A stretch of 55,775 nt of DNA, taken from NCBI GenBank assembly GCA_964562855.1, contig CAZLVB010000004.1, positions 1-55,775 of the forward strand. Reading direction: 5' to 3'. Position 1 is the stretch's first letter. Every line of letters begins with the position of its first letter. A model generated the notes under the pieces. The model saw nothing but the letters and a program-made list of their open reading frames with translations, had not been told where the DNA came from and searched no databases. A program made the translations under genes and the position numbers. This DNA is from an uncultured Gammaproteobacteria bacterium. Its GTDB lineage: Bacteria > Patescibacteriota > Microgenomatia > Curtissbacterales > GWA2-41-24. Positions 1 through 14,639 of this stretch are shown piece by piece.

Positions 1-31
1 ATTGCCGAAATCGCAACCCCGGTGCTAATAT
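1..31 (+). repeat. Repeat family F1, copy 1 (window starts inside it)
   Basis: ATTGCCGAAATCGCAACCCCGGTGCTAATAT. The same unit recurs in the same orientation at 732-762, 1510-1540 and 2044-2074. It reads as a TTGCCG-N18-TAATAT promoter-like unit. Confidence 0.8.
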
Positions 32-47
32 ATTTAGAAATACACAA

Positions 48-76
48 TTGACATTATGACAAATTTGTCATAAAAT
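48..76 (+). promoter_or_regulatory. TTGACA box plus perfect 16-nt palindrome, probable TA operator
   Basis: TTGACA at 48-53. ATGACAAATTTGTCAT at 56-71 is a perfect palindrome ending 6 nt before the ATG at 78. A TAAAAT box lies at 71-76, which is too close to the ATG for a normal leader. Confidence 0.45.
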
Positions 77-77
77 T

Positions 78-374
78 ATGGAGTTAATAGTTGATAAGCG
101 CGTACAAGCGATTGTAGATAATCTAAGTGAGTTAGAACAGGGAAGAATTTTAGGATATCTTGACCTATTTACAGAGAAGAAATTTAGTCTTCCGGCCAAA
201 TATCTAAAAAAGCTTGATAGTAATTTATGGGAGCTGAGGCCTGGGAATATTCGACTACTAATTGGAAAGACAAGTGTTGGAATGATAGTTGTGAACGTCT
301 TTAAGAAGAAAAGTCAAAAGACTCCGAAAAATGAATTAAATACTGCAAAGAAGCGGCTTATGGAGTACAAATGA
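78..374 (+). CDS. Type II toxin, RelE/HigB-like (phage Gp49-like)
   Basis: 98 aa. Contains LWELRPGNIRLLIG and FKKKSQKTP...AKKRL motifs typical of Gp49/HigB-like toxins. Has an ATGA overlap with the downstream HTH gene. Confidence 0.75.
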   Translation: MELIVDKRVQAIVDNLSELEQGRILGYLDLFTEKKFSLPAKYLKKLDSNLWELRPGNIRLLIGKTSVGMIVVNVFKKKSQKTPKNELNTAKKRLMEYK

Positions 375-670
375 TGAAGAAACCACCCTATATCACGCAC
401 GAACAATTTAGAAAAAGACTTCTCGCAAAACCAGGAGTCAGAAGGGCATATGAGGAGCTTCAGCCAGAATTTGCAATTGTCAGGGCAATTGTAGAGGCTC
501 GGGCTAAAAAAAATATTTCGCAAGAGGAATTGGCCAAAAGAATGGGGACAGGACAAGCGGTTATTTCCAGACTTGAAGGTGCAAATGCCAGCCCTTCGCT
601 TTCGCTAATAAAGAGACTGGCAAACGCCCTTAACCTCAAAGTAGAGCTACGGTTTACACCTAAAAATTAG
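371..670 (+). CDS. XRE-family HTH antitoxin (HigA-like)
   Basis: 99 aa. ISQEELAKRMGTGQAVISRLE is a helix-turn-helix. Toxin-first gene order and a 4-nt overlap with the toxin. Confidence 0.8.
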   Translation: MMKKPPYITHEQFRKRLLAKPGVRRAYEELQPEFAIVRAIVEARAKKNISQEELAKRMGTGQAVISRLEGANASPSLSLIKRLANALNLKVELRFTPKN

Positions 671-682
671 CTCACAAAAAAA

Positions 683-765
683 GTAAAACAAAAATTCTTC
701 TCGGCAGCCTAAGCAAAACCAAGCCGGAAAAATTGCCGAAATCCTTATCCCGGTGATATTATTTA
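683..765 (+). repeat. Extended F1 repeat (about 83 nt), copy 2, including a relic gene 3' end
   Basis: Near-identical to 1993-2076. Positions 683-715 translate as VKQKFFSAA-stop, the same C-terminus as the CDS at 1807-2022, but here it is non-coding. Confidence 0.85.
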
Positions 766-809
766 AATCCTGACTAAACCTGACTTACGAAATCATAAAA
801 AGCCTAACC

Positions 810-835
810 TTGACAAAAAGTAACTTATAAGTTAC
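810..835 (+). promoter_or_regulatory. TTGACA box plus perfect 16-nt palindrome, probable TA operator
   Basis: TTGACA at 810-815. GTAACTTATAAGTTAC at 820-835 is a perfect palindrome ending 3 nt before the ATG at 839. Same architecture as 48-76 with a different sequence. Confidence 0.45.
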
Positions 836-838
836 CAT

Positions 839-1153
839 ATGAGCAAGAATATATTTATGGATAAGAACGCCGAAAAGGAATTAAGAGCCTTCGGCGAAGA
901 GGTACAGCTAGAGTTTGAGGCATATTTTAAAATCTTAGAACTCGAGGGCAAACTTGGTTTTCCGCAAGCCAGGAAAATCACAAGAGATATATTTGAAATT
1001 AGAATCAAACTAAAAGGAGAATATCGAGGTTTTTATGCGTATATTGGCAAGCAAGATATTGTAATTTTGCATTTCTTTCGAAAAAAGACGCAGAAAACAC
1101 CACTTAAAGATTTAGACTTGGCTCAAAGGAGGTTAAGAATTTATGAATCGTAA
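839..1153 (+). CDS. Type II toxin, RelE/HigB-like (phage Gp49-like), paralog of 78-374
   Basis: 104 aa. Contains IFEIRIK...GEYRGFYAY...ILHFFRKKTQKTP...AQRRL, and overlaps the downstream HTH gene. Confidence 0.75.
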   Translation: MSKNIFMDKNAEKELRAFGEEVQLEFEAYFKILELEGKLGFPQARKITRDIFEIRIKLKGEYRGFYAYIGKQDIVILHFFRKKTQKTPLKDLDLAQRRLRIYES

Positions 1154-1448
1154 AATTAACCAGGCTGTCAAAAGAGGAGAACTTATTGCCTATGCTGAGC
1201 TTTTTGCAAAGTATCCCAAAAAACGCCAGCAAGAGATTCTGGAACGGGCAAGATACTTGAAAGCGGCAATGGAACTTAAAAAATTAAGAAAACTGCTCAA
1301 GATTTCCCAAAACGAGCTTGCCCGCAAAATGAAAGTAAAAAGAGAGTTCATCACCAGAATTGAAAGCGGAGAGCAAAATATAACTCTAGAAACTTTAAAT
1401 AGAATAGCCGAGGCAACAGGCAAAGAGTTCGAATTCCGTTTTAAATAA
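1143..1448 (+). CDS. XRE-family HTH antitoxin
   Basis: 101 aa. ISQNELARKMKVKREFITRIESGEQNITLETLNRIA is a helix-turn-helix. Confidence 0.8.
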   Translation: MNRKINQAVKRGELIAYAELFAKYPKKRQQEILERARYLKAAMELKKLRKLLKISQNELARKMKVKREFITRIESGEQNITLETLNRIAEATGKEFEFRFK

Positions 1449-1509
1449 TTGCTTTTCAATCCCCGAATTATCGACCCTGTTGGATAAATAGAAACACAAT
1501 TAAGCTCTG

Positions 1510-1540
1510 ATTGCCGAAATACTTATTGCGGTGATATTAT
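1510..1540 (+). repeat. Repeat family F1, copy 3
   Basis: ATTGCCGAAATACTTATTGCGGTGATATTAT, 18 nt upstream of the ATG at 1559. Confidence 0.8.
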
Positions 1541-1558
1541 TTTTCTAGTTCTAAAACT

Positions 1559-1810
1559 ATGAAAATTTTTTACACCAAACATGCCGAAGACAAACTTAAA
1601 AGAAGGGATATCAAAAGTTTTAAGATTACTAAAAAATTAATTGATGCGATATTATCAAAATCGCAGCATGAATCAAGAACAAAATACGGGGATTATTCTA
1701 TGTCGGAAAGCGTTGACGATAGGCATGATGTGAGAATAGTTTATGATATAATTGGCAAAGATTTGAAAGTTATAACTTTTCATATATCAAGGAAGGGGCG
1801 ATATAAATGA
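1559..1810 (+). CDS. Small putative toxin (DUF4258-like)
   Basis: 83 aa starting MKIFYTKHAEDKLKRRDI, typical of DUF4258-type proteins. Has an ATGA overlap with the DUF2283-like partner. Confidence 0.5.
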   Translation: MKIFYTKHAEDKLKRRDIKSFKITKKLIDAILSKSQHESRTKYGDYSMSESVDDRHDVRIVYDIIGKDLKVITFHISRKGRYK

Positions 1811-2022
1811 AGATCAAATATTACAAGAATGACGACATTTTGGTACTGAAATTTTCAAGTGAAGACGTTGATGACTCTTTCGAAATAGAAAATGCTATAC
1901 TGGAAGTTGATAGCAAAAATAATCCCGTAAACTTGGAGATTTTGCATGCTTCCAAGTTTTTTAACATAGCTTCAAAAGAATTGCCTCGCGAAGTTAAACA
2001 GAAATTCTTCTCAGCAGCCTAA
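1807..2022 (+). CDS. DUF2283-like small protein (putative antitoxin partner)
   Basis: 71 aa. Contains MKIKYYKNDDILVLKFS...LEIL, a DUF2283-like beta-rich pattern. Translationally coupled to 1559-1810. Confidence 0.55.
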   Translation: MKIKYYKNDDILVLKFSSEDVDDSFEIENAILEVDSKNNPVNLEILHASKFFNIASKELPREVKQKFFSAA

Positions 2023-2076
2023 GCAAAACCAAGCCGGAAAAAGATTGCCGAAATCCTTATCCCGGTGCTATTATTC
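1993..2076 (+). repeat. Extended F1 repeat, copy 4
   Basis: Matches 683-765 with a few substitutions and a 2-nt indel. Its first 30 nt are the real 3' end of CDS 1807-2022. Confidence 0.85.
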
Positions 2077-2127
2077 GAGCGAAAGCGAGAATAACATCGA
2101 CGAAGTTGTTATTATTAAGCCCATAAA

Positions 2128-2829
2128 ATGACTGCAAGAGACGATATTTTGTCATACCGTGAAATGTGTGATGCAGAAAATGTGCAAACGTTACAACGAG
2201 GAATGAACTTTCGATTAGATCCTCGATATTCTGTAATTCTTATGTCTCAAAGAACAAATGCTCCTTATAAAGACAAGATTTATGAAGATGGAACTACAAT
2301 TGAATACGAAGGACATGACGTGCCCAAAAAAGGCTACATGCATAATCCTAAACAAGAGGATCAACCCGAAACGCTTCCTTCTGGAAAGTTAACCCAGAAC
2401 GGGTTATTTGTTAAGACTATAAATGAATTTAAAAGTGGAGAAAGAGAGGCGGAGCTGGTAAAAGTTTATGAAAAAATTTTGCCAGGCGTCTGGTCGCTAA
2501 AAGGAATTTTTGAACTAGTTAATTACAAAGTGGTGAATGATGGCAGAAGAAATGTTTTTAGATACATTTTGAAACTAACGAATGTCGAAACTTTAGAGGG
2601 AAAAAAGCCAGAGAATATTGAAATTGCTCACAATAGAATAATTCCTTCCGAAGTAAAAAAAGAGGTCTGGAAAAGAGATAATGGTCAATGTGTGCTATGT
2701 AATTCAAAACAAAACCTGCACTTTGACCACGACCTTCCATTTTCAAAAGGAGGAACAAGCTTGACGGTAAAAAATGTAAGATTGTTATGCATGAAACATA
2801 ATTTGCAAAAATCGGCAAAAATTGAATAG
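2128..2829 (+). CDS. HNH endonuclease with N-terminal SRA/YDG-like domain (candidate modification-dependent nuclease)
   Basis: 233 aa. The C-terminus CVLCNSKQNLHFDHDLPFSKGG...NVRLLCMKHNLQK is an HNH motif. The N-terminus YSVILMSQ..APYKDKIYEDGTTIEYEGHD...DQ...N resembles an SRA-fold layout. Confidence 0.6.
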   Translation: MTARDDILSYREMCDAENVQTLQRGMNFRLDPRYSVILMSQRTNAPYKDKIYEDGTTIEYEGHDVPKKGYMHNPKQEDQPETLPSGKLTQNGLFVKTINEFKSGEREAELVKVYEKILPGVWSLKGIFELVNYKVVNDGRRNVFRYILKLTNVETLEGKKPENIEIAHNRIIPSEVKKEVWKRDNGQCVLCNSKQNLHFDHDLPFSKGGTSLTVKNVRLLCMKHNLQKSAKIE

Positions 2830-3183
2830 ATGAATATAAAAAAACTTCAAAAGCGAGTAGTTGATTTTAGAAATAAGCGGGGTTGGAAACAATTTCACAG
2901 ACCAAAAGATATGGCCCTTTCTTTAACCTTGGAAGCAGCGGAGGTTTTGGAACATTTCCAGTGGAAAGACGAAAAAGAAATTGAACAATATCTCGAAAAA
3001 GCAAAGAATAAAAAGGCACTAGCAGAAGAAATTTGCGACGTTCTGTTTTGGATTTTAACGATGGCCCACGATTTAAAAATCGATATCCCAAAATCATTTG
3101 AGCAAAAGATGAAAAAGAACGAGAGACGTTATCCAGTTGCCAAGGTCAAAGGCAAAAGCAAAAAATATAATCAGTACTACTAG
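2830..3183 (+). CDS. MazG-like all-alpha nucleotide pyrophosphohydrolase (dCTPase-like)
   Basis: 117 aa. Contains RGWKQFH.PKD.ALSLTLEAAEVLEHFQWK and EEICDVLFWIL. Its ATG immediately follows the HNH stop codon. Confidence 0.75.
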   Translation: MNIKKLQKRVVDFRNKRGWKQFHRPKDMALSLTLEAAEVLEHFQWKDEKEIEQYLEKAKNKKALAEEICDVLFWILTMAHDLKIDIPKSFEQKMKKNERRYPVAKVKGKSKKYNQYY

Positions 3184-3200
3184 AATAAAATAAGAAAGTC

Positions 3201-3935
3201 ATGAAAAAATCCCTTACCATTCATGATTTACCAAAGGAAGAGCGACCGCGTGAAAGGTTAGAGAAATATGGAGTAGAAAATCTGTCAGCTCAAGAATTGA
3301 TAGCTTTGATTTTGGGACGAGGTGTAAGAGGTGAATCAGTTATGATTACTGCGCAAAAACTACTTTCAAAATTCGGTTTACAAGGACTTAAGGAAGCCTC
3401 GCTTGAAGATTTAAAAGAAATTAAAGGCTTAGGCAATGCAAAGTCCGCACAAATAACTGCATGTGTCGAGATAGCAAGACGTATCAACGACTATGAACTT
3501 TCGCAAGCAACTAAAGTCCAAGGTATGAAGGCTCTTTCTCCGCAAGATGTATATATGCTGTTGAAACCAAAAATTAAGAATTTGACCAAAGAGCACTTTT
3601 TAACACTTTCATTTGATATCCGAAATCATCTTTTGGGTGTAGACACAATTTCAATTGGTACCCTTACGGATAATCTGGTCCATCCACGCGAAACTTTTGA
3701 AGCGGCTATTCGGCGACACGCAGCCAAAATTATAATAGCTCACAATCACCCTTCCGGAGACTCATCCCCCAGTAGCGAAGATGATCAGGTTACAAAGCAG
3801 ATCATTGAAGCGGGGCAAATTTTGAGTATTATGGTAATTGATCATGTCATCCTTTCAAGAAATGGATACTACAGCTATGCAAGTGCGAAACCTAACTTGT
3901 TTAAAAAAATGAGTGATATAAAACTCTCGCGATAA
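3201..3935 (+). CDS. radC: RadC-like JAB/MPN domain protein
   Basis: 244 aa. N-terminal HhH region (ELIALILGRG...LKEIKGLGNAKSAQI) and the JAMM motif HNHPSGDSSPSSED. Confidence 0.85.
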   Translation: MKKSLTIHDLPKEERPRERLEKYGVENLSAQELIALILGRGVRGESVMITAQKLLSKFGLQGLKEASLEDLKEIKGLGNAKSAQITACVEIARRINDYELSQATKVQGMKALSPQDVYMLLKPKIKNLTKEHFLTLSFDIRNHLLGVDTISIGTLTDNLVHPRETFEAAIRRHAAKIIIAHNHPSGDSSPSSEDDQVTKQIIEAGQILSIMVIDHVILSRNGYYSYASAKPNLFKKMSDIKLSR

Positions 3936-3948
3936 AATATATCAATTC

Positions 3949-5076
3949 ATGGATTTCAATTCAGTACTAAAAACAAAAAGTTTTTTAAGATTTACAGGCC
4001 CCCCGGAACATTGGTTAACAGCTGTGAAATTTATGACTTGGGGACTTGAAGCAGATTTAAGAGATCGATGGTTAAGGATTAGACCAGGAGATATATTTTT
4101 TGTTCATAGCACTCAAAATTCGGCTTTTAAAAATGCGAAATCAGGTATTATAGGACTGGGTGTCGTGGGACCAGGTTTTTCTGAAAAAAAGAATCCCTTA
4201 TGGTTTTATGAAACAACAAAAAATATTAACCGATGGCCGCTCCTTGTACCCCTATCAGAAGTTTACCTCTTTAGCGAGTTGCCATCCCCGAACACCTGGG
4301 AAAATCCTTCACAGCATAATATTGCCGGAACGGAAAGATTGATAGATAAGTTACTTGCAAATTATATTCCCCTAAGGCAAATTCCGGGATTTCCTCAAAT
4401 GGGTAGTTTTTCATCAGTTAAGCCCGAAGTCGCCAACAGAATACTTTTTGATAAAAAACCACTTTATCTCTATTCTGGTTATGAAGAATTGGGCGTAGCG
4501 CCTGGAAAGCCAGTGGTACAAATAAAAACTGAAGACGTAGATAGACAATTAGACGAAATAAAAAGTGCAACTGAAGCTTTGCGCTATGCAGATACTTTAA
4601 AGATTTTTGATAGTGTTAGGGCACGAATCATCAAGGAACCCACATCTCAATACACTAGGGATAATGAAATTCTTGACCGTGCCAATTCAGTTCACGCTTC
4701 AATTTTACAACAGCTTATCGATCTATTTCGGAAACATGGGTATGATACAAGGTCTAGTCGTACTGTTGATCTTTTCGCACACAACGAAAAGAATGCGTTT
4801 CTCTTTGAAGTTAAAAGTACAGAAAGTAGAAACTTTCGTACTCAAGCAAGAAAAGGTATTGCCCAACTTTTTGAATACGAATATTTTGATGTCCAGAAAT
4901 TTTCGCAAGATAATAATTTAACATTTGAAGATAAGTATAAGTTAATTATTCCGTCGCAAACCCCTAAGGATACCCGTTATGTGGACTTTATTAATAGTTT
5001 GAAGATAGGTGTTGCGCTGGTGAGCGAGAATAGTCTGAAGCCAGTTGGAGAAGACCTAGGCTTTTCTAAAATTTAA
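3949..5076 (+). CDS. EVE/PUA-like domain fused to a PD-(D/E)xK nuclease-like domain
   Basis: 375 aa. The N-terminus HWLTAVKFMTWGL...IRPGDIFFVHST...GIIGLGVV is EVE-like. The C-terminus VDLFAH...FLFEVKS...QLFEY is a D..ExK nuclease motif. Confidence 0.55.
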   Translation: MDFNSVLKTKSFLRFTGPPEHWLTAVKFMTWGLEADLRDRWLRIRPGDIFFVHSTQNSAFKNAKSGIIGLGVVGPGFSEKKNPLWFYETTKNINRWPLLVPLSEVYLFSELPSPNTWENPSQHNIAGTERLIDKLLANYIPLRQIPGFPQMGSFSSVKPEVANRILFDKKPLYLYSGYEELGVAPGKPVVQIKTEDVDRQLDEIKSATEALRYADTLKIFDSVRARIIKEPTSQYTRDNEILDRANSVHASILQQLIDLFRKHGYDTRSSRTVDLFAHNEKNAFLFEVKSTESRNFRTQARKGIAQLFEYEYFDVQKFSQDNNLTFEDKYKLIIPSQTPKDTRYVDFINSLKIGVALVSENSLKPVGEDLGFSKI

Positions 5077-5141
5077 TTTTTGCGAATGAAAAGGGAATTG
5101 GAAAGATAAACCATCCATTTTATAAACTCTACTGCCTTACT

Positions 5142-5165
5142 CCGGAAGAAATTAAAATTGTGGAG
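5142..5165 (+). repeat. Repeat family F2, degenerate copy
   Basis: CCGGAAGAAATTAAAATTGTGGAGG, to be compared with CCCGGGGAAATTGCAATTGTGGAGG at 7130-7157. Confidence 0.55.
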
Positions 5166-5198
5166 GAAAAAAGTTACAAAAAGCTTTTAATATAAACA

Positions 5199-5492
5199 TT
5201 ACGGGTTAGTATACCCACTTTTTTTGTAGGAATATACTATTCTGCTTGTGTAATCTCCTCCACCGCTTCCGCCATCACAACCTAGACCAAGAAAGTATTT
5301 TTCAATATCACGGGCTGCTTGATTTGAATCAGCTTCACGAAAAATCCAGCCTTGGCCATTTTCATAAACGCCATGATCAATAAATAACCGTTGTTTGACA
5401 TCTGATGTTATACCAACGTACCAATCCCTATATTGGCCGCCGTTTTTAGCCATGTAATTTGAAATATCATTAATGATTAGCTGCATGCCCAT
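5199..5492 (-). CDS. Small GIY-YIG-like protein
   Basis: 97 aa. WYVGITSDVKQRLFIDHGV resembles the GIY-YIG core (YVGxT...R...H). The C-terminus is Gly-rich. Confidence 0.4.
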   Translation of the reverse strand: MGMQLIINDISNYMAKNGGQYRDWYVGITSDVKQRLFIDHGVYENGQGWIFREADSNQAARDIEKYFLGLGCDGGSGGGDYTSRIVYSYKKSGYTNP

Positions 5493-5578
5493 TATTCAAC
5501 CTCCTTCCCAGTAAATTCTAGAACAGATTTAACTAAAAATCAAAGAAAACGCAATAGTACAGTACTTTTTTATCAGGC

Positions 5579-5606
5579 TTGACAAAGAGAAAGTTTAGAA
5601 TATAAT
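5579..5606 (+). promoter_or_regulatory. Sigma70-like promoter
   Basis: TTGACA (5579-5584), a 16-nt spacer, then TATAAT (5601-5606), 9 nt upstream of the ATG at 5616. Confidence 0.55.
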
Positions 5607-5615
5607 AAATGTAAT

Positions 5616-6059
5616 ATGTCAAGCGAATATAAACTTACAAAATTTACAAGTGTGGGCTCAAGGGTTGGAAATTACTTTATCAGCTTCAACAAATCTGGTC
5701 TGATATTGTCTAGCGGCTTTTATTTGCGCGAGGGGATTAAAAACTTCTCAAGAGTGGTTTTGTACTTTGATAAAAATAAAAAAGCTATTGCAATACAATT
5801 TAGTAAAGATAATAACGTTGAAGGTGGTTTTACGCTGGTCCACAGCAACAATAGAACTACTGGAAGCGTTTCCGCACGTTCATTTATTCTTACCCACGGC
5901 CTAAATGACCCCAAATACTTTGGAAGATTTGTTCCCCAAAAAATCAATTATGAAGAAGCTGGTGAGTTATTCGTTATTGATTTGCCAACCGGGGATCAAG
6001 TTAAAAATGAAGCTACCCCAAGTGCGGATGCGTCGATTGAAGAGGCTCTACCTCAATAA
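5616..6059 (+). CDS. Hypothetical protein
   Basis: 147-aa ORF with a consensus promoter just upstream. No family recognised. Confidence 0.5.
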   Translation: MSSEYKLTKFTSVGSRVGNYFISFNKSGLILSSGFYLREGIKNFSRVVLYFDKNKKAIAIQFSKDNNVEGGFTLVHSNNRTTGSVSARSFILTHGLNDPKYFGRFVPQKINYEEAGELFVIDLPTGDQVKNEATPSADASIEEALPQ

Positions 6060-6180
6060 TATCGGTAGCTAACGCAGGCAAAAGCCACGCCTAAAAACTG
6101 CGCTTGGGGTGGTCTCTAATTGAATATTACCAAAATTAATGAATGTTGGACAGTACCTGGGAAGGGTGGTGAAAGTTAAT

Positions 6181-6318
6181 ATGCAACATTCGAAGAGCTA
6201 TATTCAATCAGAAGACGCCAGAGAAGCCATTGGCTACTTATATAATGAAATTGAAGCCCTCGAACATAAAATAAGAGATCTTGAATACGAAATCGATAAA
6301 TTAAAATCTAGTCAATAA
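6181..6318 (+). CDS. Possible small coiled-coil protein (below ORF-track cutoff)
   Basis: 45 codons: MQHSKSYIQSEDAREAIGYLYNEIEALEHKIRDLEYEIDKLKSSQ. Heptad-like. An in-frame GTG at 6169 is an alternative start. Confidence 0.3.
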   Translation: MQHSKSYIQSEDAREAIGYLYNEIEALEHKIRDLEYEIDKLKSSQ

Positions 6319-6380
6319 AGTTACGATAACGATCGCATTTGACTTCCGAGAGTTACGTCTTTTATATTAACTAATCTAAA

Positions 6381-7067
6381 ATGAACAACGGTCTTTTTAA
6401 ATTAAGTCCTTCCGACTTTAGGTATTTATGGGAGGATTGCAAACATTGTTTTTACCTAAAAGTAAACAAAGGGATTAACCAGCCAAGTATTGGAATCCCC
6501 GGTGTTTTTATGAAGATGAATTCCCTTTTGCAGAAGGATATTGAGGGAGTGAATTTGAAAGATATTAATCCAAATTTGCCATCTGGGGTGATCGAAACGA
6601 AAGAAGGTTACTTAAAATCCAAACCTATACCTCCGGCAAACAATAGTTATATAAGCGGACGCTTTGATATTATTTCAAAACTTGATGATGGCAGTTATGC
6701 AATTATTGATTTCAAAATATCCGATCCGGTAGAAGAAAAAGTTCAAAAATTCACACACCAGCTTCATGCCTATAAATTTGCAATAGAGAATCCCTTGGAA
6801 GGTGAGGGAAGAAATGTAAGCAAGATGGGTTTGGTGATAGTTTCTCCCGAACAAATTGGCTTCAAAAATGGGTTTGTTTATTTTAAATCTACGCCTCAAT
6901 GGTTTGAAATAAAAGAAGACATGGACGGTTTTTTAAATTTTATTGGGGGTGTGAATGAGGTTTTAAACGGTAAACCGCCGCAACCTACACCCGAATGTAA
7001 ATGGTGCATATATCGTACATATTTTGAACCAAAGGAGGCTATTGATTCAGACGAACTCCCGTTTTAA
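6381..7067 (+). CDS. PD-(D/E)xK nuclease, Cas4/RecB-like with Cys cluster
   Basis: 228 aa. CKHC lies near the N-terminus and CKWC near the C-terminus. D...IIDFK is a nuclease motif, and a QLHAYKF (QxxxY) motif is present. Confidence 0.65.
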   Translation: MNNGLFKLSPSDFRYLWEDCKHCFYLKVNKGINQPSIGIPGVFMKMNSLLQKDIEGVNLKDINPNLPSGVIETKEGYLKSKPIPPANNSYISGRFDIISKLDDGSYAIIDFKISDPVEEKVQKFTHQLHAYKFAIENPLEGEGRNVSKMGLVIVSPEQIGFKNGFVYFKSTPQWFEIKEDMDGFLNFIGGVNEVLNGKPPQPTPECKWCIYRTYFEPKEAIDSDELPF

Positions 7068-7129
7068 TTTAAAAAACACTAGCCACCTTCAATGTGAACT
7101 GTGTTGACACCAAGCCTAATTTGGTCACA

Positions 7130-7157
7130 CGTCCCGGGGAAATTGCAATTGTGGAGG
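7130..7157 (+). repeat. Repeat family F2
   Basis: CGTCCCGGGGAAATTGCAATTGTGGAGG. Related copies lie at 7798-7833 and 9222-9259. Confidence 0.8.
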
Positions 7158-7211
7158 GGCGGAATATAATTTAAGAATTAAACTTTATTATATTTTCTTT
7201 TTGAAGTCTCC

Positions 7212-7556
7212 TTAGAATGACGGCGTCAGAAACTCTAAAAATTTCCGGCAGATCTTGAATAAATGGAGCCAATACTTCGGGAGGCTCCATGGAAGGAATT
7301 CTCCCGAGCCGTTTTTCTTCACTAATTTTCTAAAGTCTTTAAAATTAACAGTGATCACAAAACAATTTTTCTCGGTCGCCTTTTGGTAAATATCTTTGTC
7401 TTCTGCTTGTCTGGATAGCCCAAAATCATATACACAATGATAAATTTTTGCGCGCTTCGTAAGTTTTGGAAAAAACTCTAACTTTGCGAATGCCGAATCA
7501 AGTACGAGCCGAAACTTGCGTTTCTTTTTAAGTTTTTTAAGGGATCTTTTAGGCAA
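7212..7556 (-). CDS. DUF5615/PIN-like putative toxin, possibly frameshifted in its 3' third
   Basis: 114 aa with a TTG start overlapping the upstream DUF433 reading frame. Contains ...DKDIYQKATEKNCFVITVNFKDF. After ...NGSG, an alternative frame (IPSMEPPEVLAPFIQDLPEIF...) looks more family-like. Confidence 0.45.
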   Translation of the reverse strand: MPKRSLKKLKKKRKFRLVLDSAFAKLEFFPKLTKRAKIYHCVYDFGLSRQAEDKDIYQKATEKNCFVITVNFKDFRKLVKKNGSGEFLPWSLPKYWLHLFKICRKFLEFLTPSF

Positions 7557-7753
7557 CTTTTGTCGAGTAGTAGCTGTAAATTTCCTGCAGATCTTTTTTC
7601 GTTAACTTAAGATATGGATATTCTTTTTTAAAGTCTTTTATTTTATAACCTTGAATGTGCAGAGCCACCACACGAGCAACCGGAATTCTCGTGCCTCTCA
7701 AAACGGGTTGCCCCCCCCAAAACTTTTGGATTAGTTTGAATTATGTCTGGCAT
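7549..7753 (-). pseudogene. DUF433-like antitoxin gene interrupted by a frameshift in a G8/C8 homopolymer
   Basis: The minus strand reads MPDIIQTNPKVLGG, then a run of 8 G (plus-strand C8 at 7711-7718). With 7 G the frame continues QPVLRGTRIPVARVV...YPYLKLTKKDLQEIYSYY, giving a 67-aa DUF433 pattern. Confidence 0.65.
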
Positions 7754-7797
7754 AAATACATTATACACATTTCGGTCAATACGGCCTCGCCTCAAAA

Positions 7798-7833
7798 GGA
7801 CGCCAAACGTCCCGGGGAAATTGCAGTTGTGGA
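7798..7833 (+). repeat. Repeat family F2
   Basis: GGACGCCAAACGTCCCGGGGAAATTGCAGTTGTGGA, which aligns with 9222-9259. Confidence 0.8.
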
Positions 7834-7840
7834 AAAGAAA

Positions 7841-8074
7841 TTAAATAGAGGCGAATCCTCTTACGTGTAGAATCTCATCTGTCGCCATTGACCGTACATC
7901 TGAAGTTTTAAGAGTTATCACAGCAACCGTTTTACCAGCTGTAATAAACTCTACTTCTACTGCCCGGCCCTCGTTATAGACGTGCACAATTGTTCCAATG
8001 TCGCCTTTCTTGAGTCCGTGCTTCTTGAAATCTTTTGTTAACACAACAGTATCTAATTCATTCATAATGTCCAT
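7841..8074 (-). CDS. DUF4926-like small protein
   Basis: 77 aa. VVLTKDFKKHGLKKGDIGTIVHVYNEGRAVEVEF is the characteristic DUF4926 pattern. Confidence 0.6.
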   Translation of the reverse strand: MDIMNELDTVVLTKDFKKHGLKKGDIGTIVHVYNEGRAVEVEFITAGKTVAVITLKTSDVRSMATDEILHVRGFASI

Positions 8075-8075
8075 A

Positions 8076-8438
8076 TTATACAGGATAAACAGTGATAAAT
8101 CGAGGATTTTTTTGACCTTTTTCTATAATCCAAATTGTTCTGACATGAATAGTTTTTCCGTGAGGTGCATTAATGTTTCCATCAAGAACGTATTTTGTTC
8201 CATATTGTGAAGTTTGTAGATCAATAACATCTTCTGATTCAGCAATCTTCTGTAACTCCTTTTCAAATATTGAGACATTAACCTCAACTAACCCAAACTT
8301 GCGAAAGATTTTTGCTTTAAACTTACCTGTGGAATGTGTTTCTGAAAGAATATAATCGGTTAACTTTTTGCGCTGTATGATGGCTTTTTTACCATTCGGA
8401 AGCTTCATTCGATTGATTATAGCATTGCTCCAAACCAT
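8076..8438 (-). CDS. DUF6883-like protein, upstream partner of DUF4926
   Basis: 120 aa. Contains KLTDYILSETHSTGKFKAKIFRKFG. There is a 1-nt gap to the downstream gene. Confidence 0.5.
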   Translation of the reverse strand: MVWSNAIINRMKLPNGKKAIIQRKKLTDYILSETHSTGKFKAKIFRKFGLVEVNVSIFEKELQKIAESEDVIDLQTSQYGTKYVLDGNINAPHGKTIHVRTIWIIEKGQKNPRFITVYPV

Positions 8439-8500
8439 AGATATTCAAAACCCCAACAAGAACGGTCCTCAACTAGCCTGCGACAACGGATTCGGCAAGC

Positions 8501-8553
8501 CTTCGACCTCGAGCTCAGATCTTCGATTCCGAGATCACTCAGATTCGAGGAAC
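8501..8553. repeat. GC-rich palindromic element, intergenic copy
   Basis: CTTCGACCTCGAGCTCAGATCTTCGATTCCGAGATCACTCAGATTCGAGGAAC matches the reverse complement of 36511-36560 (inside miaB) at roughly 46 of 50 positions. Confidence 0.85.
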
Positions 8554-8621
8554 CGAATCGGCTCACCGCAAGCACTGCCAAAATTGCCACTTTCTTTCAA
8601 AAAGTTCTAATTTTAAATATG

Positions 8622-9098
8622 CTAATTAACTACAAGGATGGCGAAGTTAAGGAGAGCAGCAAAGGTTACCCAAAGAATGTAGGGGATTAGAATAATGCCG
8701 GCAGGTTTTGATATCTTGTAAAAAGCATAAATTGTTGCGGCGATTGCCAGCCAGAGAACGATAATCCCCGCAAATGCCAATGAGGGTGATTTTAAGCCGA
8801 AGAATAAAAAGGACCATAAAACATTTAAAATCAGCTGCAGTGCAAAGATAAAAAGTGCAATTCGAACCACCTTTTTAATAACGCCTTTTTCCCAAATTAA
8901 AAAGGCAGAAACTCCCATCAAAAGATAAAGAAGTGTCCAGACCGGAGCAAAAATCCAGTTTGGCGGGTTAAAAGAAGGTTTAGTTAAAGTTGCGTACCAA
9001 GTCTCAATAGAAGAAGAAGTAAATATGGAACCTGCCGCACCCACCAGTTCAACAAGCACCACAAAAACCAAAACGTGGGCGGCCCTTTTTATCCCCAT
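8622..9098 (-). CDS. tspO: TspO/MBR family tryptophan-rich sensory protein
   Basis: 158 aa with five hydrophobic helices. Contains FNPPNWIFAPVWTLLYLLMG. Confidence 0.8.
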   Translation of the reverse strand: MGIKRAAHVLVFVVLVELVGAAGSIFTSSSIETWYATLTKPSFNPPNWIFAPVWTLLYLLMGVSAFLIWEKGVIKKVVRIALFIFALQLILNVLWSFLFFGLKSPSLAFAGIIVLWLAIAATIYAFYKISKPAGIILIPYILWVTFAALLNFAILVVN

Positions 9099-9150
9099 GC
9101 TTTAATAATAAATTACTCCCCAACCATTCTCAAAGTCTTCATTCTCCAAA

Positions 9151-9201
9151 CCTGCCTGCCCATTCGGGTCTGAGCCTCAGGGTCGAAGACCGGCAGGCAG
9201 G
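9151..9201. repeat. Split CCTGCCTGCC / GGCAGGCAGG inverted repeat with nested hairpin
   Basis: The arms at 9151-9160 and 9192-9201 are perfect complements. The 31-nt loop contains CTGAGCCTCAG. The same arms occur fused at 15268-15289 and 37992-38009. Confidence 0.75.
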
Positions 9202-9221
9202 GGCGGGCAGGCACCACAGGA

Positions 9222-9259
9222 GGACGCCAAGCGCCCCGGGGAAATTGTAATTGTGGAGG
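9222..9259 (+). repeat. Repeat family F2
   Basis: GGACGCCAAGCGCCCCGGGGAAATTGTAATTGTGGAGG. Confidence 0.8.
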
Positions 9260-9308
9260 GGGAAGATTCATTCTTTTTAGATTAGCAAACGCTTGGTATA
9301 ATAACGTC

Positions 9309-9542
9309 ATGACCAATAAATTGGATTACATTATTAAATTAACTTATGACAAAGAATATAAAGGGTACGTTGCGGACGTAGTGAATTTGTATGGCTGTAT
9401 GAGTCAGGGTAAAACCAAAAAAGAAGCGATCGCAAACGCGAAAAAAGCCATTAACGCATATATTGAAGCTACTACCAAAAAAGCTGAAAAAGGCGCCGAA
9501 TTTGCCAAAGCTTCGGTTAGTTCTCGAGTCGCGCTTAATTAA
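9309..9542 (+). CDS. hicB: HicB-like antitoxin
   Basis: 77 aa. Contains YKGYVADVVNLYGCMSQGKTKKEAIANAKKAINAYIE (UPF0150/HicB fold pattern). Confidence 0.7.
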   Translation: MTNKLDYIIKLTYDKEYKGYVADVVNLYGCMSQGKTKKEAIANAKKAINAYIEATTKKAEKGAEFAKASVSSRVALN

Positions 9543-9545
9543 CAA

Positions 9546-9767
9546 ATGGGCAGATTTGCCAATATTTCCGGTAGATCTGCAGTTAAAAGCCTTATAAAGT
9601 TTGGATATAGTCATACTCACACTTCCGGTGATCATGCAATTCTACAAAAAGAAGGGGCGCCTACTCTTTCTATTCCCCTGCATAGAGAAGTAGCCCCAAA
9701 TTTGTTGAAAGCGCAGATAAAAAGAGCGGGAATTAGTCAAGACGATTTTTTGAAGAAAGTAAAATAA
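9546..9767 (+). CDS. hicA: HicA-like mRNA interferase toxin
   Basis: 73 aa. Contains LIKFGYSHTHTSGDHAILQKEG...LSIPLHREVAPNLLKAQIKRAGIS. Confidence 0.75.
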   Translation: MGRFANISGRSAVKSLIKFGYSHTHTSGDHAILQKEGAPTLSIPLHREVAPNLLKAQIKRAGISQDDFLKKVK

Positions 9768-10064
9768 GCCCATAAGGATACTCCTTAACGTCCGTCTACT
9801 AAGAAATCGCCTCTTGCAAAGGCGCTAGGAGTAGGATAAATCAGCCTCCAGCGAAGCTGGATCTGATATTTCCCTCTTGCAATGAAGCTAGCATTGGGAT
9901 ATAATCTGCGGCTAGTTTGTACACCTGCACAACACCTGTCAAACGCCCAAATTTAGCTTCGGCCTAAAGCTAAAACCAAAAAGAAAATTTTACGTCTGTG
10001 AATAAGTTCGTGAAAAGTGACATCTTGACAATTGTCCAAGTTTTATCGATAAAGGAGTAAGGCC

Positions 10065-10343
10065 ATGAAAATCGTATCATTAACCAGAGGGCAAAAACTA
10101 AAAAATCTAAAGAAAAAGCTTTCTGAGCTTGAAGAGGTTAAGTTAAAGCAAGCCCTAGCCAAGTATGGAGAAGCTTATCAGGAATCGGGCGCGGCCTGGC
10201 AGGAAAACGCGGCCTGGGAACTGGCAGACGAGGAAGTTTCCGTAATTCGAGCAATGATTGCAGAAATTAAAAGGGAAATTGTCACCCTGGAACATCCTCT
10301 TCCAACAGCTTCCGTTCCTCTGGCCATAAAAAAGGGGAAATAA
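10065..10343 (+). CDS. Hypothetical coiled-coil protein (weak GreA N-terminal-like)
   Basis: 92 aa. AAWQENAAWELADEEVSVIRAMIAEIKREI loosely resembles the GreA coiled coil. A GGAG lies 8 nt upstream of the ATG. Confidence 0.4.
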   Translation: MKIVSLTRGQKLKNLKKKLSELEEVKLKQALAKYGEAYQESGAAWQENAAWELADEEVSVIRAMIAEIKREIVTLEHPLPTASVPLAIKKGK

Positions 10344-10370
10344 TCCAAATTAGATTAGAATAGTAAGATA

Positions 10371-12512
10371 ATGGCAGAAAAAACATCTCGACTTTATCCT
10401 TTAGATCGCATAAGGAACATCGGCATCATTGCCCATATTGACGCGGGCAAAACAACTACCACCGAGAGAATTCTTTTTTACACAGGCAAAACTTACAAAC
10501 TGGGCAACATTGATGAGGGAACAACTGTTACCGATTGGATGGCCCAGGAAAAAGAGCGGGGAATTACCATCGTTTCCGCAGCCGTAACAACATTTTGGAA
10601 GCCTAAAGATGGCCCGTTTGCCGGAATCGATATGCGAATAAATATTATAGACACTCCCGGCCACGTCGATTTTACCGCCGAAGTCGAAAGGTCCCTGCGG
10701 GTGTTGGACGGAGGAGTTACAGTTCTTGACGCCGAAGAAGGCGTGCAGAGCCAATCAGAAACAGTCTGGCGCCAGGCTGACAAGTATAAAGTACCGCGCA
10801 TTTGTTTTGTCAACAAAATGGACAAAGTCGGTGCAGATTTTTACGAAACACTTTCGTCAATCCGTCAGAAACTGCAAGCACCGGCAGTCGCCTACAACTT
10901 GCCGATTGGCAAAGAAAATGATTTTAGCGGAGTCGTCGATTTGCTCACCCAAAAAGCCTATATTTGGGAAGAGGAGTCGGCCAAAAAAGGCGGTATGGAT
11001 TTTAAGGAGGTGCCGATACCGCAAAAAATGCACGCCGACGTCGAAAAATATCGAGCACAACTGGTTGAAAAAATCGCAGAAAATGATGAGGCTCTTGTCG
11101 AAAAATATCTTGCCGGAGACAAGATAACTGTTGAGGAACTGAAAAAAGCGCTAAGAAGCGCAGTCATCGCATATAAGATAGTGCCGGTACTTGCCGGCTC
11201 CAGTCTTCGAAATAAGGGAGTCCAGCTGCTTCTGGACGCGGTCGTTGAGTATTTACCATCTCCCATTGACATAGAAACTGTCGAAGGCACTAACCCTAAG
11301 ACAAATGAAAAGGAAATCCGCAAGCAGGTAATCGAAGCACCATTTGGCGGCCTTGCCTTTAAAGTCCAAATTGATCCGCATGTTGGTAAATTAAATTACG
11401 TAAGAATCTACTCAGGTACCCTCAAATCCGGTACTTCAATTTTAAATACTACTAAGAAGGAACGCGAGCGAATCGGCAGAATATTATTAATGCACGCCAA
11501 TACCAGAGAAGAAATTGCCGAAGCATACGCAGGCGAAATAGTGGCGGTGGTCGGCTTAAAAAGTACTACTACCGGTGACACGCTCTGCGATGAAAATTCG
11601 CCAATTATTTTAGAGTCTATCTCTTTTCCGGATCCGGTAATTTCTTTGGCAATCGAGCCGGCGACAAAAGCCGATCAGGAAAAACTCGGATACGCTCTTG
11701 GCAGACTCTCAGAAGAAGACCCTACTTTTAAGATTAAGGGTGATCCGGAAACCGGCCAGACAATTATTTCCGGCATGGGAGAATTGCACCTGGAAATTTT
11801 AGTTGACAGAATGAAGAGAGAATTTTCTGTGGCCGCCAATGTCGGCAGTCCGCAAGTTGCCTACAAAGAAACGATTAAAGAGATAGGCAAAGGTGAAGGT
11901 AAATATATCAGGCAGTCCGGAGGAAGAGGTCAGTATGGACACTGTTTTTTAAGGGTTGAGCCGCAACCCAGAGGCGAAGGTTATCAGTTCGTCTCCGAGA
12001 TTAAAGGAGGGACAATTCCCCAGGAATTCATTCCGTCTGTTGAAAAAGGCGTCCGCGAGAAAATGGAAACCGGAGTTCTTGCCGGTTACCCCATGGTTGA
12101 TATGAAAGTTGCCGTCTACGACGGTACTTATCATGATGTTGATTCTTCCGACATTGCTTTTAAAATTGCCGGCTCCCTTGCTCTAGAGGAGGCTGTCAAG
12201 AATGCCCAGCTTGCGCTTTTGGAACCTATCATGAAGGTTGAGGTGACCATTCCAGAAGAATTTATGGGCGATGTTATCGGCGATTTGTCTGCCAAGCGCG
12301 CCCAAATTCACAAAAGCGAACATCATGGAAATAGCACAATTATCACAGCCCTTGTGCCTTTAGCCGAAATGTCCGGTTATGTCACAACTTTAAGATCTAT
12401 GACCCAGGGCAGAGGCTCCGCCTACATGGAGCCGTCGCACTATGAGGAAGTTCCTCAAAACATCTCCGACAAAATAGTATCGAAGGTTCGAGGAGAGAAA
12501 TCAGAAAGTTAA
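10371..12512 (+). CDS. fusA: Elongation factor G
   Basis: 713 aa. Contains [26 protein letters not shown] and NKMD motifs. Full-length EF-G domain layout. Confidence 0.97.
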
Positions 12513-13835: not shown

Positions 13836-13846
13836 GCGCAAAATTA

Positions 13847-14629: not shown

Positions 14630-14639
14630 AGTGCTTATT

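What the first reader, a model, noticed from the sequence alone, without database searches (positions are those of the whole stretch)
2128..5076. Tightly coupled SRA-like-HNH / MazG-like / RadC-JAB / EVE-PD-(D/E)xK block: candidate multi-pronged defence against modified-base phage DNA
The four genes are separated by 0, 17 and 13 nt on one strand, directly downstream of the TA cassette array. Two are nucleases fused to domains that, in characterised type IV enzymes, read modified cytosines: SRA-HNH as in TagI/ScoMcrA, and EVE-HNH as in VcaM4I. Between them sits an all-alpha MazG/dCTPase-like enzyme. Members of that family preferentially hydrolyse modified or non-canonical dNTPs. The hypothesis is that the block cleaves modified DNA and also sanitises the modified dNTP pool, with the JAB protein as regulator or accessory. 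This gene combination is not a named system to my knowledge.
Basis: partly seen in the sequence, partly recalled or inferred. Interest (0 to 1): 0.75.

Follow-up and report, generated by a model that had tools for sequence, protein, structure and literature searches.

The report
Modified-DNA nucleases with a dCTPase partner
Four tightly packed genes in a probable CPR (ultra-small) bacterium encode two nucleases predicted to read chemically modified DNA, a small enzyme related to human DCTPP1 (which destroys modified dCTP), and RadC. The same gene families recur together in many bacteria and some archaea, which points to an undescribed accessory layer of modification-dependent restriction.

Summary
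Four same-strand ORFs (2128-5076) are separated by 0, 17 and 13 nt and sit between toxin-antitoxin cassettes.

Structure prediction plus Foldseek gives these architectures:
- P1: SRA fold plus HNH.
- P4: EVE fold plus PD-(D/E)xK.
- P2: a DCTPP1/RS21-C6 homologue (E 3e-19).
- P3: a canonical RadC.

All catalytic motifs are intact.

The new result is the gene linkage. A P2-like MazG lies immediately upstream of P4 relatives in 36 of 37 evaluable species genomes, usually with a 4-nt overlap. It also lies beside a 23%-identical P4 homologue on a haloarchaeal plasmid. RadC joins in 8 of those loci and SRA-HNH in 5.

SRA-HNH has a module partner in 27 of 48 evaluable metagenome loci. The usual form is MazG plus a PD-(D/E)xK-like DUF2075 (Nhi/AbiO-like) helicase. 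Bacillus megaplasmids carry HNH-MazG-DUF2075.

The block is therefore one arrangement of a shuffling module, not a fixed four-gene system. Its core is a modification-reader nuclease plus a DCTPP1-like pyrophosphatase.

Best reading (inferred, untested): type IV restriction plus sanitation of the modified-dCTP pool. I found no description of this pairing in PADLOC or in the searchable literature. It is a new variant of a known kind.

The parts
2128..2829 (+). P1: SRA-HNH endonuclease (233 aa). The SRA-like reader is roughly residues 1-150 (nt 2128-2577). The HNH domain is roughly residues 170-233 (nt 2635-2829).
   Evidence: ORF. Foldseek hits of the AF2 model are all SRA domains or SRA-type MDREs. 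Weak HNH Pfam, IscB-HNH and REase_II hits. Invariant CxxC/HFDH/CxxHN. 6668 homologues, named HNH or restriction endonuclease in CPR MAGs.
2830..3183 (+). P2: all-alpha MazG-like NTP pyrophosphohydrolase (117 aa), DCTPP1/RS21-C6-like. Its start codon directly follows the P1 stop codon.
   Evidence: PF12643 8e-16 and PF03819 2e-8. PDB 2a3q/6sqw DCTPP1 at E 3e-19 and archaeal 4qgp at 2.5e-19. E35, E38, E41, E67, D70, W19, H23 and W45 are invariant in 54 homologues.
3201..3935 (+). P3: canonical full-length RadC (244 aa), made of an N-terminal UPF0758/HhH region and a RadC-type JAB domain.
   Evidence: PF04002 8e-40 and PF20582 4e-25. NCBIfam NF000642 at 228 bits against a cut-off of 180. PDB 2qlc at 7e-31. 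JAMM motif H181-x-H-x7-S-x2-D is present.
3949..5076 (+). P4: EVE-PD-(D/E)xK nuclease (375 aa). The EVE-like reader is roughly residues 10-145 (nt 3976-4383). A low-confidence linker follows. The PD-(D/E)xK domain is roughly residues 238-365 (nt 4660-5043).
   Evidence: Foldseek: PH1033, MJECL36 and VcaM4I for the N-terminus; XisH, Hjc and McrC for the C-terminus. Weak profile hits to 2p5d and Hjc. D274/E287/K289/Q299 conserved. The N-domain is homologous to the N-domains of McrB-type AAA_5 proteins and of an HNH protein.
2045..2074 (+). Promoter-like site (TTGCCG-18-TATTAT with TG) in the 105-nt gap upstream of P1. Possible operon promoter, weak evidence.
   Evidence: Consensus scan. The number of such sites in the region does not exceed shuffles, so this is only compatible with an operon and does not demonstrate one. 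No terminator-like site lies between the four genes.

Best explanation
The block is one arrangement of a modular, horizontally mobile modification-dependent (type IV-like) restriction cluster. Its conserved accessory is a DCTPP1-like pyrophosphatase.

Proposed roles:
- P1 uses an SRA domain to flip out a modified cytosine, and its HNH domain cuts nearby.
- P4 does the same job with an EVE pocket and a PD-(D/E)xK domain, probably for a different or overlapping modification.
- P2 is co-translated with its nuclease partner. It hydrolyses 5-modified dCTP (5m-, 5hm- or similar) to the monophosphate. That matters most for a nucleotide-scavenging CPR cell. It may also starve phages that build modified DNA.
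- P3 (RadC) is a facultative fourth partner. It is a DNA-binding JAB-domain protein of unknown chemistry, perhaps involved in processing or repair of DNA ends.

Shown computationally: folds, intact catalytic motifs and gene linkage. Inferred: substrates, self-protection and the anti-phage phenotype.
For: Folds and motifs.

Linkage of MazG with P4:
- A MazG-like gene lies immediately upstream of the P4 relative in 36 of 37 evaluable species-level genomes. The junction is mostly a 4-nt overlap. The genomes span CPR phyla, Elusimicrobia, Omnitrophica and Firestonebacteria.
- The same holds for distant EVE relatives, including an EVE-HNH in cultured Desulforhopalus.
- A haloarchaeal plasmid carries a 23%-identical two-domain P4 homologue convergent with a 32%-identical MazG.

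Linkage of the other families:
- RadC lies inside or beside the pair in 8 of 36 loci, in two gene orders and with overlapping junctions.
- One RadC clade is 56-99% identical across both P4-type and helicase-type modules.
- SRA-HNH has a module partner in 27 of 48 evaluable loci.
- MazG-anchored sampling: 4 of 6 CPR loci have a DUF2075 nuclease-helicase next door, one of them also with SRA-HNH.
- Bacillus, Priestia and Halalkalicoccus plasmids carry (MrcB_N-)HNH + MazG + DUF2075.

Defence context:
- The helicase hits the Nhi, AbiO and PDC-S41 defence models.
- The window block lies in a TA/defence island, and related loci hold GmrSD, R-M and TA genes.

Substrate inference: DCTPP1 prefers 5-modified dCTP (established knowledge of the RS21-C6/DCTPP1 family). 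SRA and EVE read 5mC/5hmC in TagI, ScoMcrA and VcaM4I (PMC6765204, PMC7897488).

Parallel: MutT homologues sit beside SauUSI-type type IV enzymes (PMC7641849).
Against: - No experiment exists. The modification recognised, the dNTPase specificity and any phage phenotype are all inferred.
- The exact four-gene order was not seen elsewhere.
- P1 is solitary in 20 of 48 evaluable loci, so it does not need the others.
- RadC identity to the window does not track P4 identity. Co-variation of pairwise identities between partners is weak (rho 0.1-0.5). The window's RadC could therefore be the resident housekeeping copy.
- MazG-like genes also occur alone or in housekeeping contexts: L136, L149, and Listeria next to nrdEF.
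- The AF2 models are of moderate confidence (pLDDT 68-72), built from shallow alignments of close homologues.
- Pfam does not detect SRA or EVE at sequence level.
- Loci are phylogenetically non-independent, and pattern-based retrieval favours close relatives.
- No MazG-nuclease fusion protein was found.
Confidence: 0.6

Rival explanations
1. Island coincidence. The four genes are independent tenants of a TA/defence island: two stand-alone type IV enzymes, a housekeeping dCTPase and the housekeeping radC. They are co-oriented and compact only because CPR genomes are compact.
For: P1 is solitary in 20 of 48 evaluable loci. The exact order is unique to the window. RadC identity follows neither P4 nor P1 identity. 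Single-protein SRA-HNH and EVE-nuclease enzymes are known to work alone (PMC6765204). MazG-like genes can be solo or housekeeping.
Against: MazG lies directly upstream of P4 relatives in 36 of 37 genomes with overlapping stop and start codons, and this extends to an archaeal plasmid in a different orientation. RadC adjacency in 8 of 36 loci is far above the roughly 1% expected for a single-copy gene falling in a 12-kb window. The same families recombine in several orders.
Confidence: 0.15
2. Nucleotide-sensing abortive system. The EVE and/or SRA pocket binds a free modified mononucleotide rather than DNA. MazG either makes that ligand (modified dNTP to dNMP) or is itself a dNTP-depleting effector. 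The nuclease is switched on as a suicide or dormancy effector.
For: A PUA-like domain senses m6-dAMP and triggers dNTP depletion in the PUA-Cal-HAD system. Rare variants of that system replace the calcineurin-like domain with MazG (bioRxiv 10.64898/2026.01.15.699771). Strict translational coupling of MazG and P4 suggests a complex or a fixed stoichiometry.
Against: No HAD partner is present. P4's reader domain is also found on McrB-type and HNH type IV architectures that act on DNA. DCTPP1-type enzymes are house-cleaning rather than bulk-depleting enzymes (family knowledge).
Confidence: 0.13
3. Genome-hygiene or repair operon, not immunity. In salvage-dependent cells, MazG removes scavenged modified dCTP, the EVE nuclease nicks at mis-incorporated modified bases, and RadC helps repair.
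For: Strong purifying selection: 55-80% identity across phyla. RadC is traditionally annotated as a repair protein. CPR bacteria depend on nucleotide salvage (general knowledge). One MazG lies beside a Vsr + C5 methyltransferase.
Against: Distribution is patchy and accessory. The pattern-based scan of 185,579 species genomes retrieved only 38 loci, though that scan finds close relatives only. There are only 23 clusters at E<=1e-30 in 1.84 billion representatives. The genes sit in TA/R-M/GmrSD islands and on plasmids. P4 is interchangeable with Nhi/AbiO-like defence helicases. Transfer across phyla and across domains has occurred.
Confidence: 0.1

Closest known systems
TagI / ScoMcrA-type SRA-HNH type IV restriction endonucleases
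   Same: N-terminal SRA-fold reader plus C-terminal HNH. ScoMcrA, AspBHI, MspJI and plant and animal SRA domains are the Foldseek hits. No methyltransferase motif was found in any ORF of at least 150 aa in the 55.8-kb window.
   Different: No sequence-level SRA match. P1 is a compact 233 aa without the extra ScoMcrA domains. It is frequently embedded with MazG plus a DUF2075 helicase, P4 or RadC. Specificity is untested.
VcaM4I (EVE-HNH) and other PUA/EVE-nuclease fusions (Lutz 2019 PMC6765204; Bell 2020 PMC7641849)
   Same: An EVE-fold N-terminal reader fused to a nuclease. VcaM4I is among the structural hits. A distant relative with a MazG upstream is itself an EVE-HNH (L053).
   Different: The catalytic domain is PD-(D/E)xK (Hjc/XisH-like), not HNH. 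A near-obligate upstream MazG-like gene is present. Neither paper mentions MazG or RadC.
DCTPP1 / RS21-C6 (all-alpha dCTP pyrophosphatase 1)
   Same: Full-length homology at E 3e-19. The metal-binding Glu/Asp residues and the His/Trp residues are identical in the printed alignment.
   Different: A stand-alone bacterial protein of 117 aa, translationally coupled to nucleases. Substrate preference is unknown.
Nhi / AbiO / DUF2075 nuclease-helicase defence proteins
   Same: These are the commonest partners of this MazG clade, and they occupy the same slot as P4 immediately downstream of MazG.
   Different: Absent from the window. The published single-gene systems are not described with a MazG partner in the literature I could search.
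PUA-Cal-HAD system and its rare PUA-MazG-HAD variants (bioRxiv 2026.01.15.699771)
   Same: A PUA-superfamily reader is combined with a nucleotide phosphoesterase in an immune context.
SauUSI-type type IV enzymes with adjacent MutT (Bell 2020)
   Same: A type IV restriction gene sits next to a small NTP pyrophosphohydrolase. The Priestia locus has both MutT and MazG.
   Different: The hydrolase fold differs (Nudix versus all-alpha MazG) and so does the nuclease family.

Membership tests
SRA-HNH modification-dependent (type IV) endonucleases | N-terminal SRA (YDG) fold | tested here: met
   AF2 model plus Foldseek: 24 hits at E<=1e-3, all SRA domains; TM 0.65 to SUVH5 SRA. Not detectable by Pfam sequence models.
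SRA-HNH modification-dependent (type IV) endonucleases | Intact HNH beta-beta-alpha-metal motif | tested here: met
   C188xxC, H198-F-D-H201, N216 and C221xxH224-N225 are invariant in 21 homologues. Weak HNH, HNH_5 and IscB-HNH hits.
SRA-HNH modification-dependent (type IV) endonucleases | Cleavage depends on 5mC/5hmC (or another modification) in the substrate | not testable with these tools
   Needs in vitro digestion of modified versus unmodified DNA.
SRA-HNH modification-dependent (type IV) endonucleases | No cognate protective methyltransferase | tested here: met
   There is no methyltransferase among the four genes. No C5 or N6/N4 methyltransferase motif occurs in any ORF of at least 150 aa in the 55.8-kb window. 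This is a motif-level test only.
EVE/PUA-nuclease fusion MDREs | EVE (PUA-like) fold reader domain | tested here: met
   Foldseek: PH1033 at 7e-5, MJECL36 at 1e-4, VcaM4I and YTH. Weak profile hits to 2p5d (E 0.2) and PRK00809 (E 0.025). The domain is shared with McrB-type and HNH proteins. Model pLDDT is only 57-81 in this region.
EVE/PUA-nuclease fusion MDREs | Catalytically intact nuclease domain | tested here: met
   D274, E287-x-K289 and Q299 are conserved. pLDDT is 76-92 in this region. Structural hits are XisH, Hjc and McrC.
EVE/PUA-nuclease fusion MDREs | Binding of a modified base in the EVE pocket | not testable with these tools
   Conserved aromatic residues (W31, W41, F50, H53, F60, W85, W96, Y106) are compatible with this, but specificity needs binding assays.
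DCTPP1-like all-alpha NTP pyrophosphohydrolases (MazG superfamily) | Sequence membership and metal-binding motif ExxExxE...EExxD | tested here: met
   PF12643 at 58.5 bits against a cut-off of 27. DCTPP1 at E 3e-19. E35/E38/E41/E67/D70 are invariant.
DCTPP1-like all-alpha NTP pyrophosphohydrolases (MazG superfamily) | Preference for dCTP and 5-modified dCTP | not testable with these tools
   Requires a dNTPase panel on purified protein.
RadC (canonical) | UPF0758 N-terminal HhH region plus RadC JAB domain with the HxHx7Sx2D motif, scoring above the curated cut-off | tested here: met
   NF000642 at 228 bits against 180. PF04002 at 8e-40. Motif at residues 181-194.
Any named multi-gene defence system in PADLOC-DB v2 | Component HMM hits matching a defined system | tested here: not met
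   Only generic REase_II, JAB and Cas4 hits were found. P2 and P4 have no hit.
PUA-Cal-HAD / PUA-MazG-HAD | PUA fused to a phosphoesterase, plus a HAD phosphatase gene | tested here: not met
   EVE is fused to a nuclease and MazG is separate. No protein scanned in the block or its flanks matched HAD.

The most novel reading that the evidence does not exclude
MazG converts phage-made modified dNTPs (for example hm-dCTP) into the corresponding dNMP. That mononucleotide, rather than modified DNA, fills the EVE and/or SRA pocket and licenses the nuclease. This would be analogous to m6-dAMP sensing by PUA-Cal-HAD, and it would explain the near-obligate translational coupling of MazG to P4 across bacteria and archaea.
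Probability: 0.12. Interest if true: 0.85.

Novelty: new variant of a known kind. Interest (0 to 1): 0.65.

Why it matters
Type IV restriction enzymes are usually treated as single-protein systems, and their cost is thought to be conflict with methyltransferases. A conserved partner that polices the modified-dNTP pool would add a metabolic self-protection or anti-phage layer. It would explain how cells that scavenge foreign nucleotides can afford promiscuous modified-base nucleases. It would also give a bacterial and archaeal context for the DCTPP1 family.

The same MazG clade also accompanies Nhi/AbiO-like DUF2075 helicases in Bacillus megaplasmids and haloarchaeal plasmids. Because cultured hosts carry these modules, the idea can be tested at the bench directly. 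The recurrent RadC link also offers a rare handle on the unknown function of RadC.

Tried and rejected
- Sequence-level detection of SRA/EVE. Pfam finds nothing even at E up to 10 on isolated domains, so the fold calls rest on AF2 plus Foldseek.
- PADLOC gives no system-level hit.
- Rosetta-stone search for MazG-P4 fusions among 150 representatives. The N-terminal extensions of P0379, P0380, P0387, P0399 and P0401 are not MazG.
- Phage origin. No relative of P1 or P4 occurs in IMG/VR viral contigs.
- General EVE-MazG link. Two haloarchaeal McrB-like (AAA ATPase) loci carrying P4's reader-type N-domain lack MazG. The link is therefore specific to the P4/EVE-nuclease lineage, not to EVE as such.
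- Co-phylogeny. Pairwise-identity correlations between partners are weak (rho 0.06-0.48), so they cannot settle whether RadC travels with the module.
- L004's 375-aa neighbour of SRA-HNH looked like P4 by length, but it is an unrelated NmeDI_C/REase_II-type protein.
- L018 was checked for a P1 remnant between its DUF2283 gene and MazG. None was found.
- The Streptomyces MazG neighbour (330 aa) is not related to P4 and has no Pfam hit.
- Promoter and terminator scans are no better than shuffles.
- Ten literature searches found no description of MazG with EVE, DUF2075, Nhi or type IV enzymes. The library holds open-access papers and preprints only.


Full report
**1. Observation**

The window carries four co-oriented ORFs at 2128-2829 (P1, 233 aa), 2830-3183 (P2, 117 aa), 3201-3935 (P3, 244 aa) and 3949-5076 (P4, 375 aa). 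The gaps are 0, 17 and 13 nt.

Upstream lie three TA-like cassettes: Gp49/HigB-like + HTH twice, and DUF4258 + DUF2283. Downstream lie a weak GIY-YIG-like ORF on the minus strand, a Cas4-like PDDEXK_1 gene, and two further TA-like pairs (DUF5615/DUF433 and DUF4926/DUF6883). The description is accurate. The setting is a TA/defence island next to housekeeping genes; there are no RNA genes nearby apart from a distant tRNA-Pro.

**2. What the proteins are**

- P2 is a MazG-like all-alpha NTP pyrophosphohydrolase (PF12643, 8e-16). By direct sequence search it is a full-length homologue of mammalian dCTP pyrophosphatase 1/RS21-C6 (E 3e-19) and of an archaeal pyrophosphatase.
  - The metal-binding residues E35, E38, E41, E67 and D70, and W19, H23 and W45, are invariant in 54 homologues. 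They align with identical residues in RS21-C6.
- P3 is a canonical RadC. It matches the NCBIfam equivalog at 228 bits against a cut-off of 180, and it has the UPF0758/HhH N-terminus and the JAMM motif H181xHx7Sx2D.
- P1 has only weak HNH sequence hits, but its CxxC/HFDH/CxxHN motif is invariant. Its N-terminal 150 residues have no Pfam hit.
  - The AF2 model (pLDDT 71.6, pTM 0.69) retrieves only SRA domains. These are SUVH5/6, AspBHI, MspJI, ScoMcrA and UHRF1/2; best E 1e-5, TM 0.65 on the SUVH5 SRA.
- P4 has no significant Pfam hit. Its AF2 model (pLDDT 68.3; the C-terminal domain is at 76-92) matches the founding EVE protein PH1033, MJECL36 and VcaM4I with the N-terminus. The C-terminus matches XisH, Hjc and McrC.
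  - The residues D274, E287-x-K289 and Q299 are conserved.
  - Independently, the P4 N-domain is sequence-homologous (E 1e-15 to 1e-17) to the N-domains of McrB-type AAA_5 proteins. At E 3e-9 it also matches the N-domain of an HNH protein. That is the distribution expected of a type IV reader module.

**3. Are the genes linked?**

I anchored surveys on each family.

*P4-anchored survey.* One genome per species, 38 loci.
- A P2-like MazG lies immediately upstream on the same strand in 36 of 37 evaluable loci, mostly with a 4-nt overlap. The exception is a 78-codon P4 remnant.
- The set spans several CPR phyla, Elusimicrobia, Omnitrophica and Firestonebacteria. It includes three distant EVE-only relatives, among them cultured Desulforhopalus singaporensis, where the partner is an EVE-HNH.
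- RadC is directly attached in 8 loci: six as RadC-MazG-P4 and two as MazG-RadC-P4, the order seen in the window.
- SRA-HNH is attached in 5 loci.
- On a Halosegnis marinus plasmid, a 23%-identical homologue covering both P4 domains is convergent with a 32%-identical MazG.

*P1-anchored survey.* 80 metagenome loci, 48 evaluable.
- 27 have a module partner. Most often this is MazG plus a roughly 610-aa protein with a PD-(D/E)xK-like N-terminus and a DUF2075/SLFN-g3 helicase domain.
- That helicase hits the PADLOC Nhi, AbiO and PDC-S41 models.
- Four of these loci are preceded by RadC, and two have P4.
- L055, the closest P1 relative, reads P1-RadC-MazG and then the contig ends.
- 20 loci are solitary.

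*MazG-anchored survey in CPR.* 6 loci.
- Four have the DUF2075 protein directly downstream, one of them with SRA-HNH upstream.
- Two are solo, one of these beside a Vsr + C5-methyltransferase R-M unit.

*MazG-anchored survey in plasmids.* 12 contexts.
- Priestia carries MrcB_N-HNH + MazG + DUF2075, with MutT upstream.
- Three B. cereus-group megaplasmids, including B. thuringiensis HD-1 pBMB431, carry HNH + (120 aa) + MazG + DUF2075.
- B. mycoides p362 carries helicase + MazG + type I R-M.
- Halalkalicoccus carries MazG + DUF2075 + EEP nuclease.
- Five contexts are uninformative or housekeeping, for example Listeria next to nrdEF.

Two haloarchaeal McrB-like (AAA ATPase) loci that carry P4's reader-type N-domain lack MazG. 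No relatives occur on viral contigs.

**4. Reading of the linkage**

The conserved unit is a DCTPP1-like MazG plus a nuclease that carries, or is accompanied by, a modified-base reader (EVE, SRA or MrcB_N). RadC and SRA-HNH are recurrent but facultative. The order of parts shuffles.

The window's arrangement P1-MazG-RadC-P4 was not found in any of the other loci scanned for these families. It looks like a composite:
- Its MazG is closest (81%) to one from an HNH-MazG-helicase locus.
- Its P4 is closest (about 80%) to one from RadC-MazG-P4 loci.

RadC falls into two groups.
- One clade is 56-99% identical across both module types and across different lineages, which suggests co-transfer.
- The window's RadC groups instead with Levybacteria-type loci (59-67%). 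It could be the resident copy. I could not determine RadC copy number per genome.

**5. Mechanism**

The steps below are inferred.
- SRA and EVE are base-flipping readers of 5mC/5hmC in TagI, ScoMcrA and VcaM4I (PMC6765204, PMC7897488).
- DCTPP1-family enzymes preferentially hydrolyse 5-modified dCTP (family knowledge, from my own recollection of the RS21-C6/DCTPP1 literature).

The simplest model has three parts:
- P1 and P4 restrict DNA that carries modified cytosines.
- P2 keeps modified dCTP out of the host's own replication and repair. That dCTP could come from salvage of foreign DNA, from degraded phage DNA or from phage synthesis. Removing it prevents autoimmunity and possibly starves phages that build modified DNA.
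- RadC is an accessory of unknown chemistry.

The strict translational coupling of MazG to its nuclease fits a "metabolic antitoxin" role.

Rivals:
- Coincidence of independent island genes.
- A nucleotide-sensing abortive system, by analogy with PUA-Cal-HAD, which senses m6-dAMP and has rare MazG variants.
- A non-immune genome-hygiene operon.

**6. Comparison with the known and novelty**

Each part belongs to a known kind: SRA-HNH and EVE-nuclease type IV enzymes, DCTPP1-like MazG, and RadC. The membership features that could be tested were met; substrate specificities could not be tested.

The conserved pairing of this MazG clade with reader nucleases and with Nhi/AbiO-like helicases has no PADLOC model. 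It is also not mentioned in the two key EVE/PUA surveys. Ten full-text searches found nothing either; that library is open-access only, so absence there is not proof of absence. The nearest precedent is MutT next to SauUSI homologues.

I therefore rate it a new variant of a known kind. It is of real interest because it is widespread, spans two domains of life and can be tested in cultured Bacillus and haloarchaea.

**7. Caveats**
- The AF2 models are of moderate confidence and come from shallow alignments.
- Retrieval was pattern-based and favours close relatives.
- The loci are phylogenetically non-independent.
- Co-variation between partners is weak.
- No fusion proteins were found.
- Nothing here measures function.

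Noticed in passing
window 6381-7067 (+): A Cas4-like PDDEXK_1 gene (TIGR00372 at 1.5e-6, with no CRISPR nearby) lies about 1.3 kb downstream of the block. Homologues recur a few kb from the module in L001/L002/L058, L095 and L051, and a PDDEXK_1 gene also lies downstream of MazG in L136. It may be another island tenant or another accessory.
   Followed up: partly
window 5199-5492 (-) and 5616-6059 (+): A 97-aa ORF convergent with P4 has a weak GIY-YIG hit (E 0.04). The 147-aa ORF after it, behind a perfect sigma-70-like promoter at 5579-5606, has no family hit at all.
   Followed up: no
window 1559-2022 (+); L018:901-1381: A DUF4258 + DUF2283 pair lies directly upstream of the block. A homologous pair lies upstream of MazG-RadC-P4 in L018. 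Unrelated-sequence DUF2283 pairs precede solitary SRA-HNH in L006-L009. Gp49/HigB-type cassettes recur within 1-3 kb of the module in about 9 loci.
   Followed up: partly
L150:4354-6702: One MazG-linked DUF2075 helicase (782 aa) carries a C-terminal Peptidase_S24 (LexA/UmuD-like) domain. This hints at autoproteolytic or RecA-dependent regulation in that variant.
   Followed up: no
L136:5001-7802: The second-closest MazG (77%) is solo. It abuts, on the opposite strand, a Vsr + 309-aa unknown + C5 DNA methyltransferase unit. This is a 5mC context without a reader nuclease.
   Followed up: no
L004:6001-10015: Here SRA-HNH is followed 4 nt later by an unrelated 375-aa protein with a NmeDI_C/REase_II-type C-terminus, and then by GmrSD. 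This is a different stack of modification-dependent nucleases.
   Followed up: partly
L137:5345-7325: A MazG-linked DUF2075 gene is truncated after 282 codons, just before the Walker A region ends, and IS (rve) transposase genes follow. This is an example of module decay.
   Followed up: no
proteins P0380, P0387 (relatives of P4): Some P4 relatives carry 100-200-aa N-terminal extensions with no Pfam hit. P0387 begins with a motif (…YFLVVEGRRYDSKAICGVAHGY…) that reminded me of the N-terminal heads of McrA/ScoMcrA-like enzymes. This was not tested.
   Followed up: no
L141 (Priestia plasmid) 3349-7255; L143 (B. thuringiensis HD-1 pBMB431) 1534-7165: Both loci also have a Nudix/MutT-type (d)NTP pyrophosphohydrolase a gene or two upstream of HNH-MazG-DUF2075. 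Two different house-cleaning folds therefore sit in one island.
   Followed up: no
window 1-9000 versus 9000-18000: GC content is 0.34-0.39 across the island and 0.43-0.45 in the adjacent translation-gene region. This is compatible with a horizontally acquired island, but other parts of the window are equally AT-rich.
   Followed up: no
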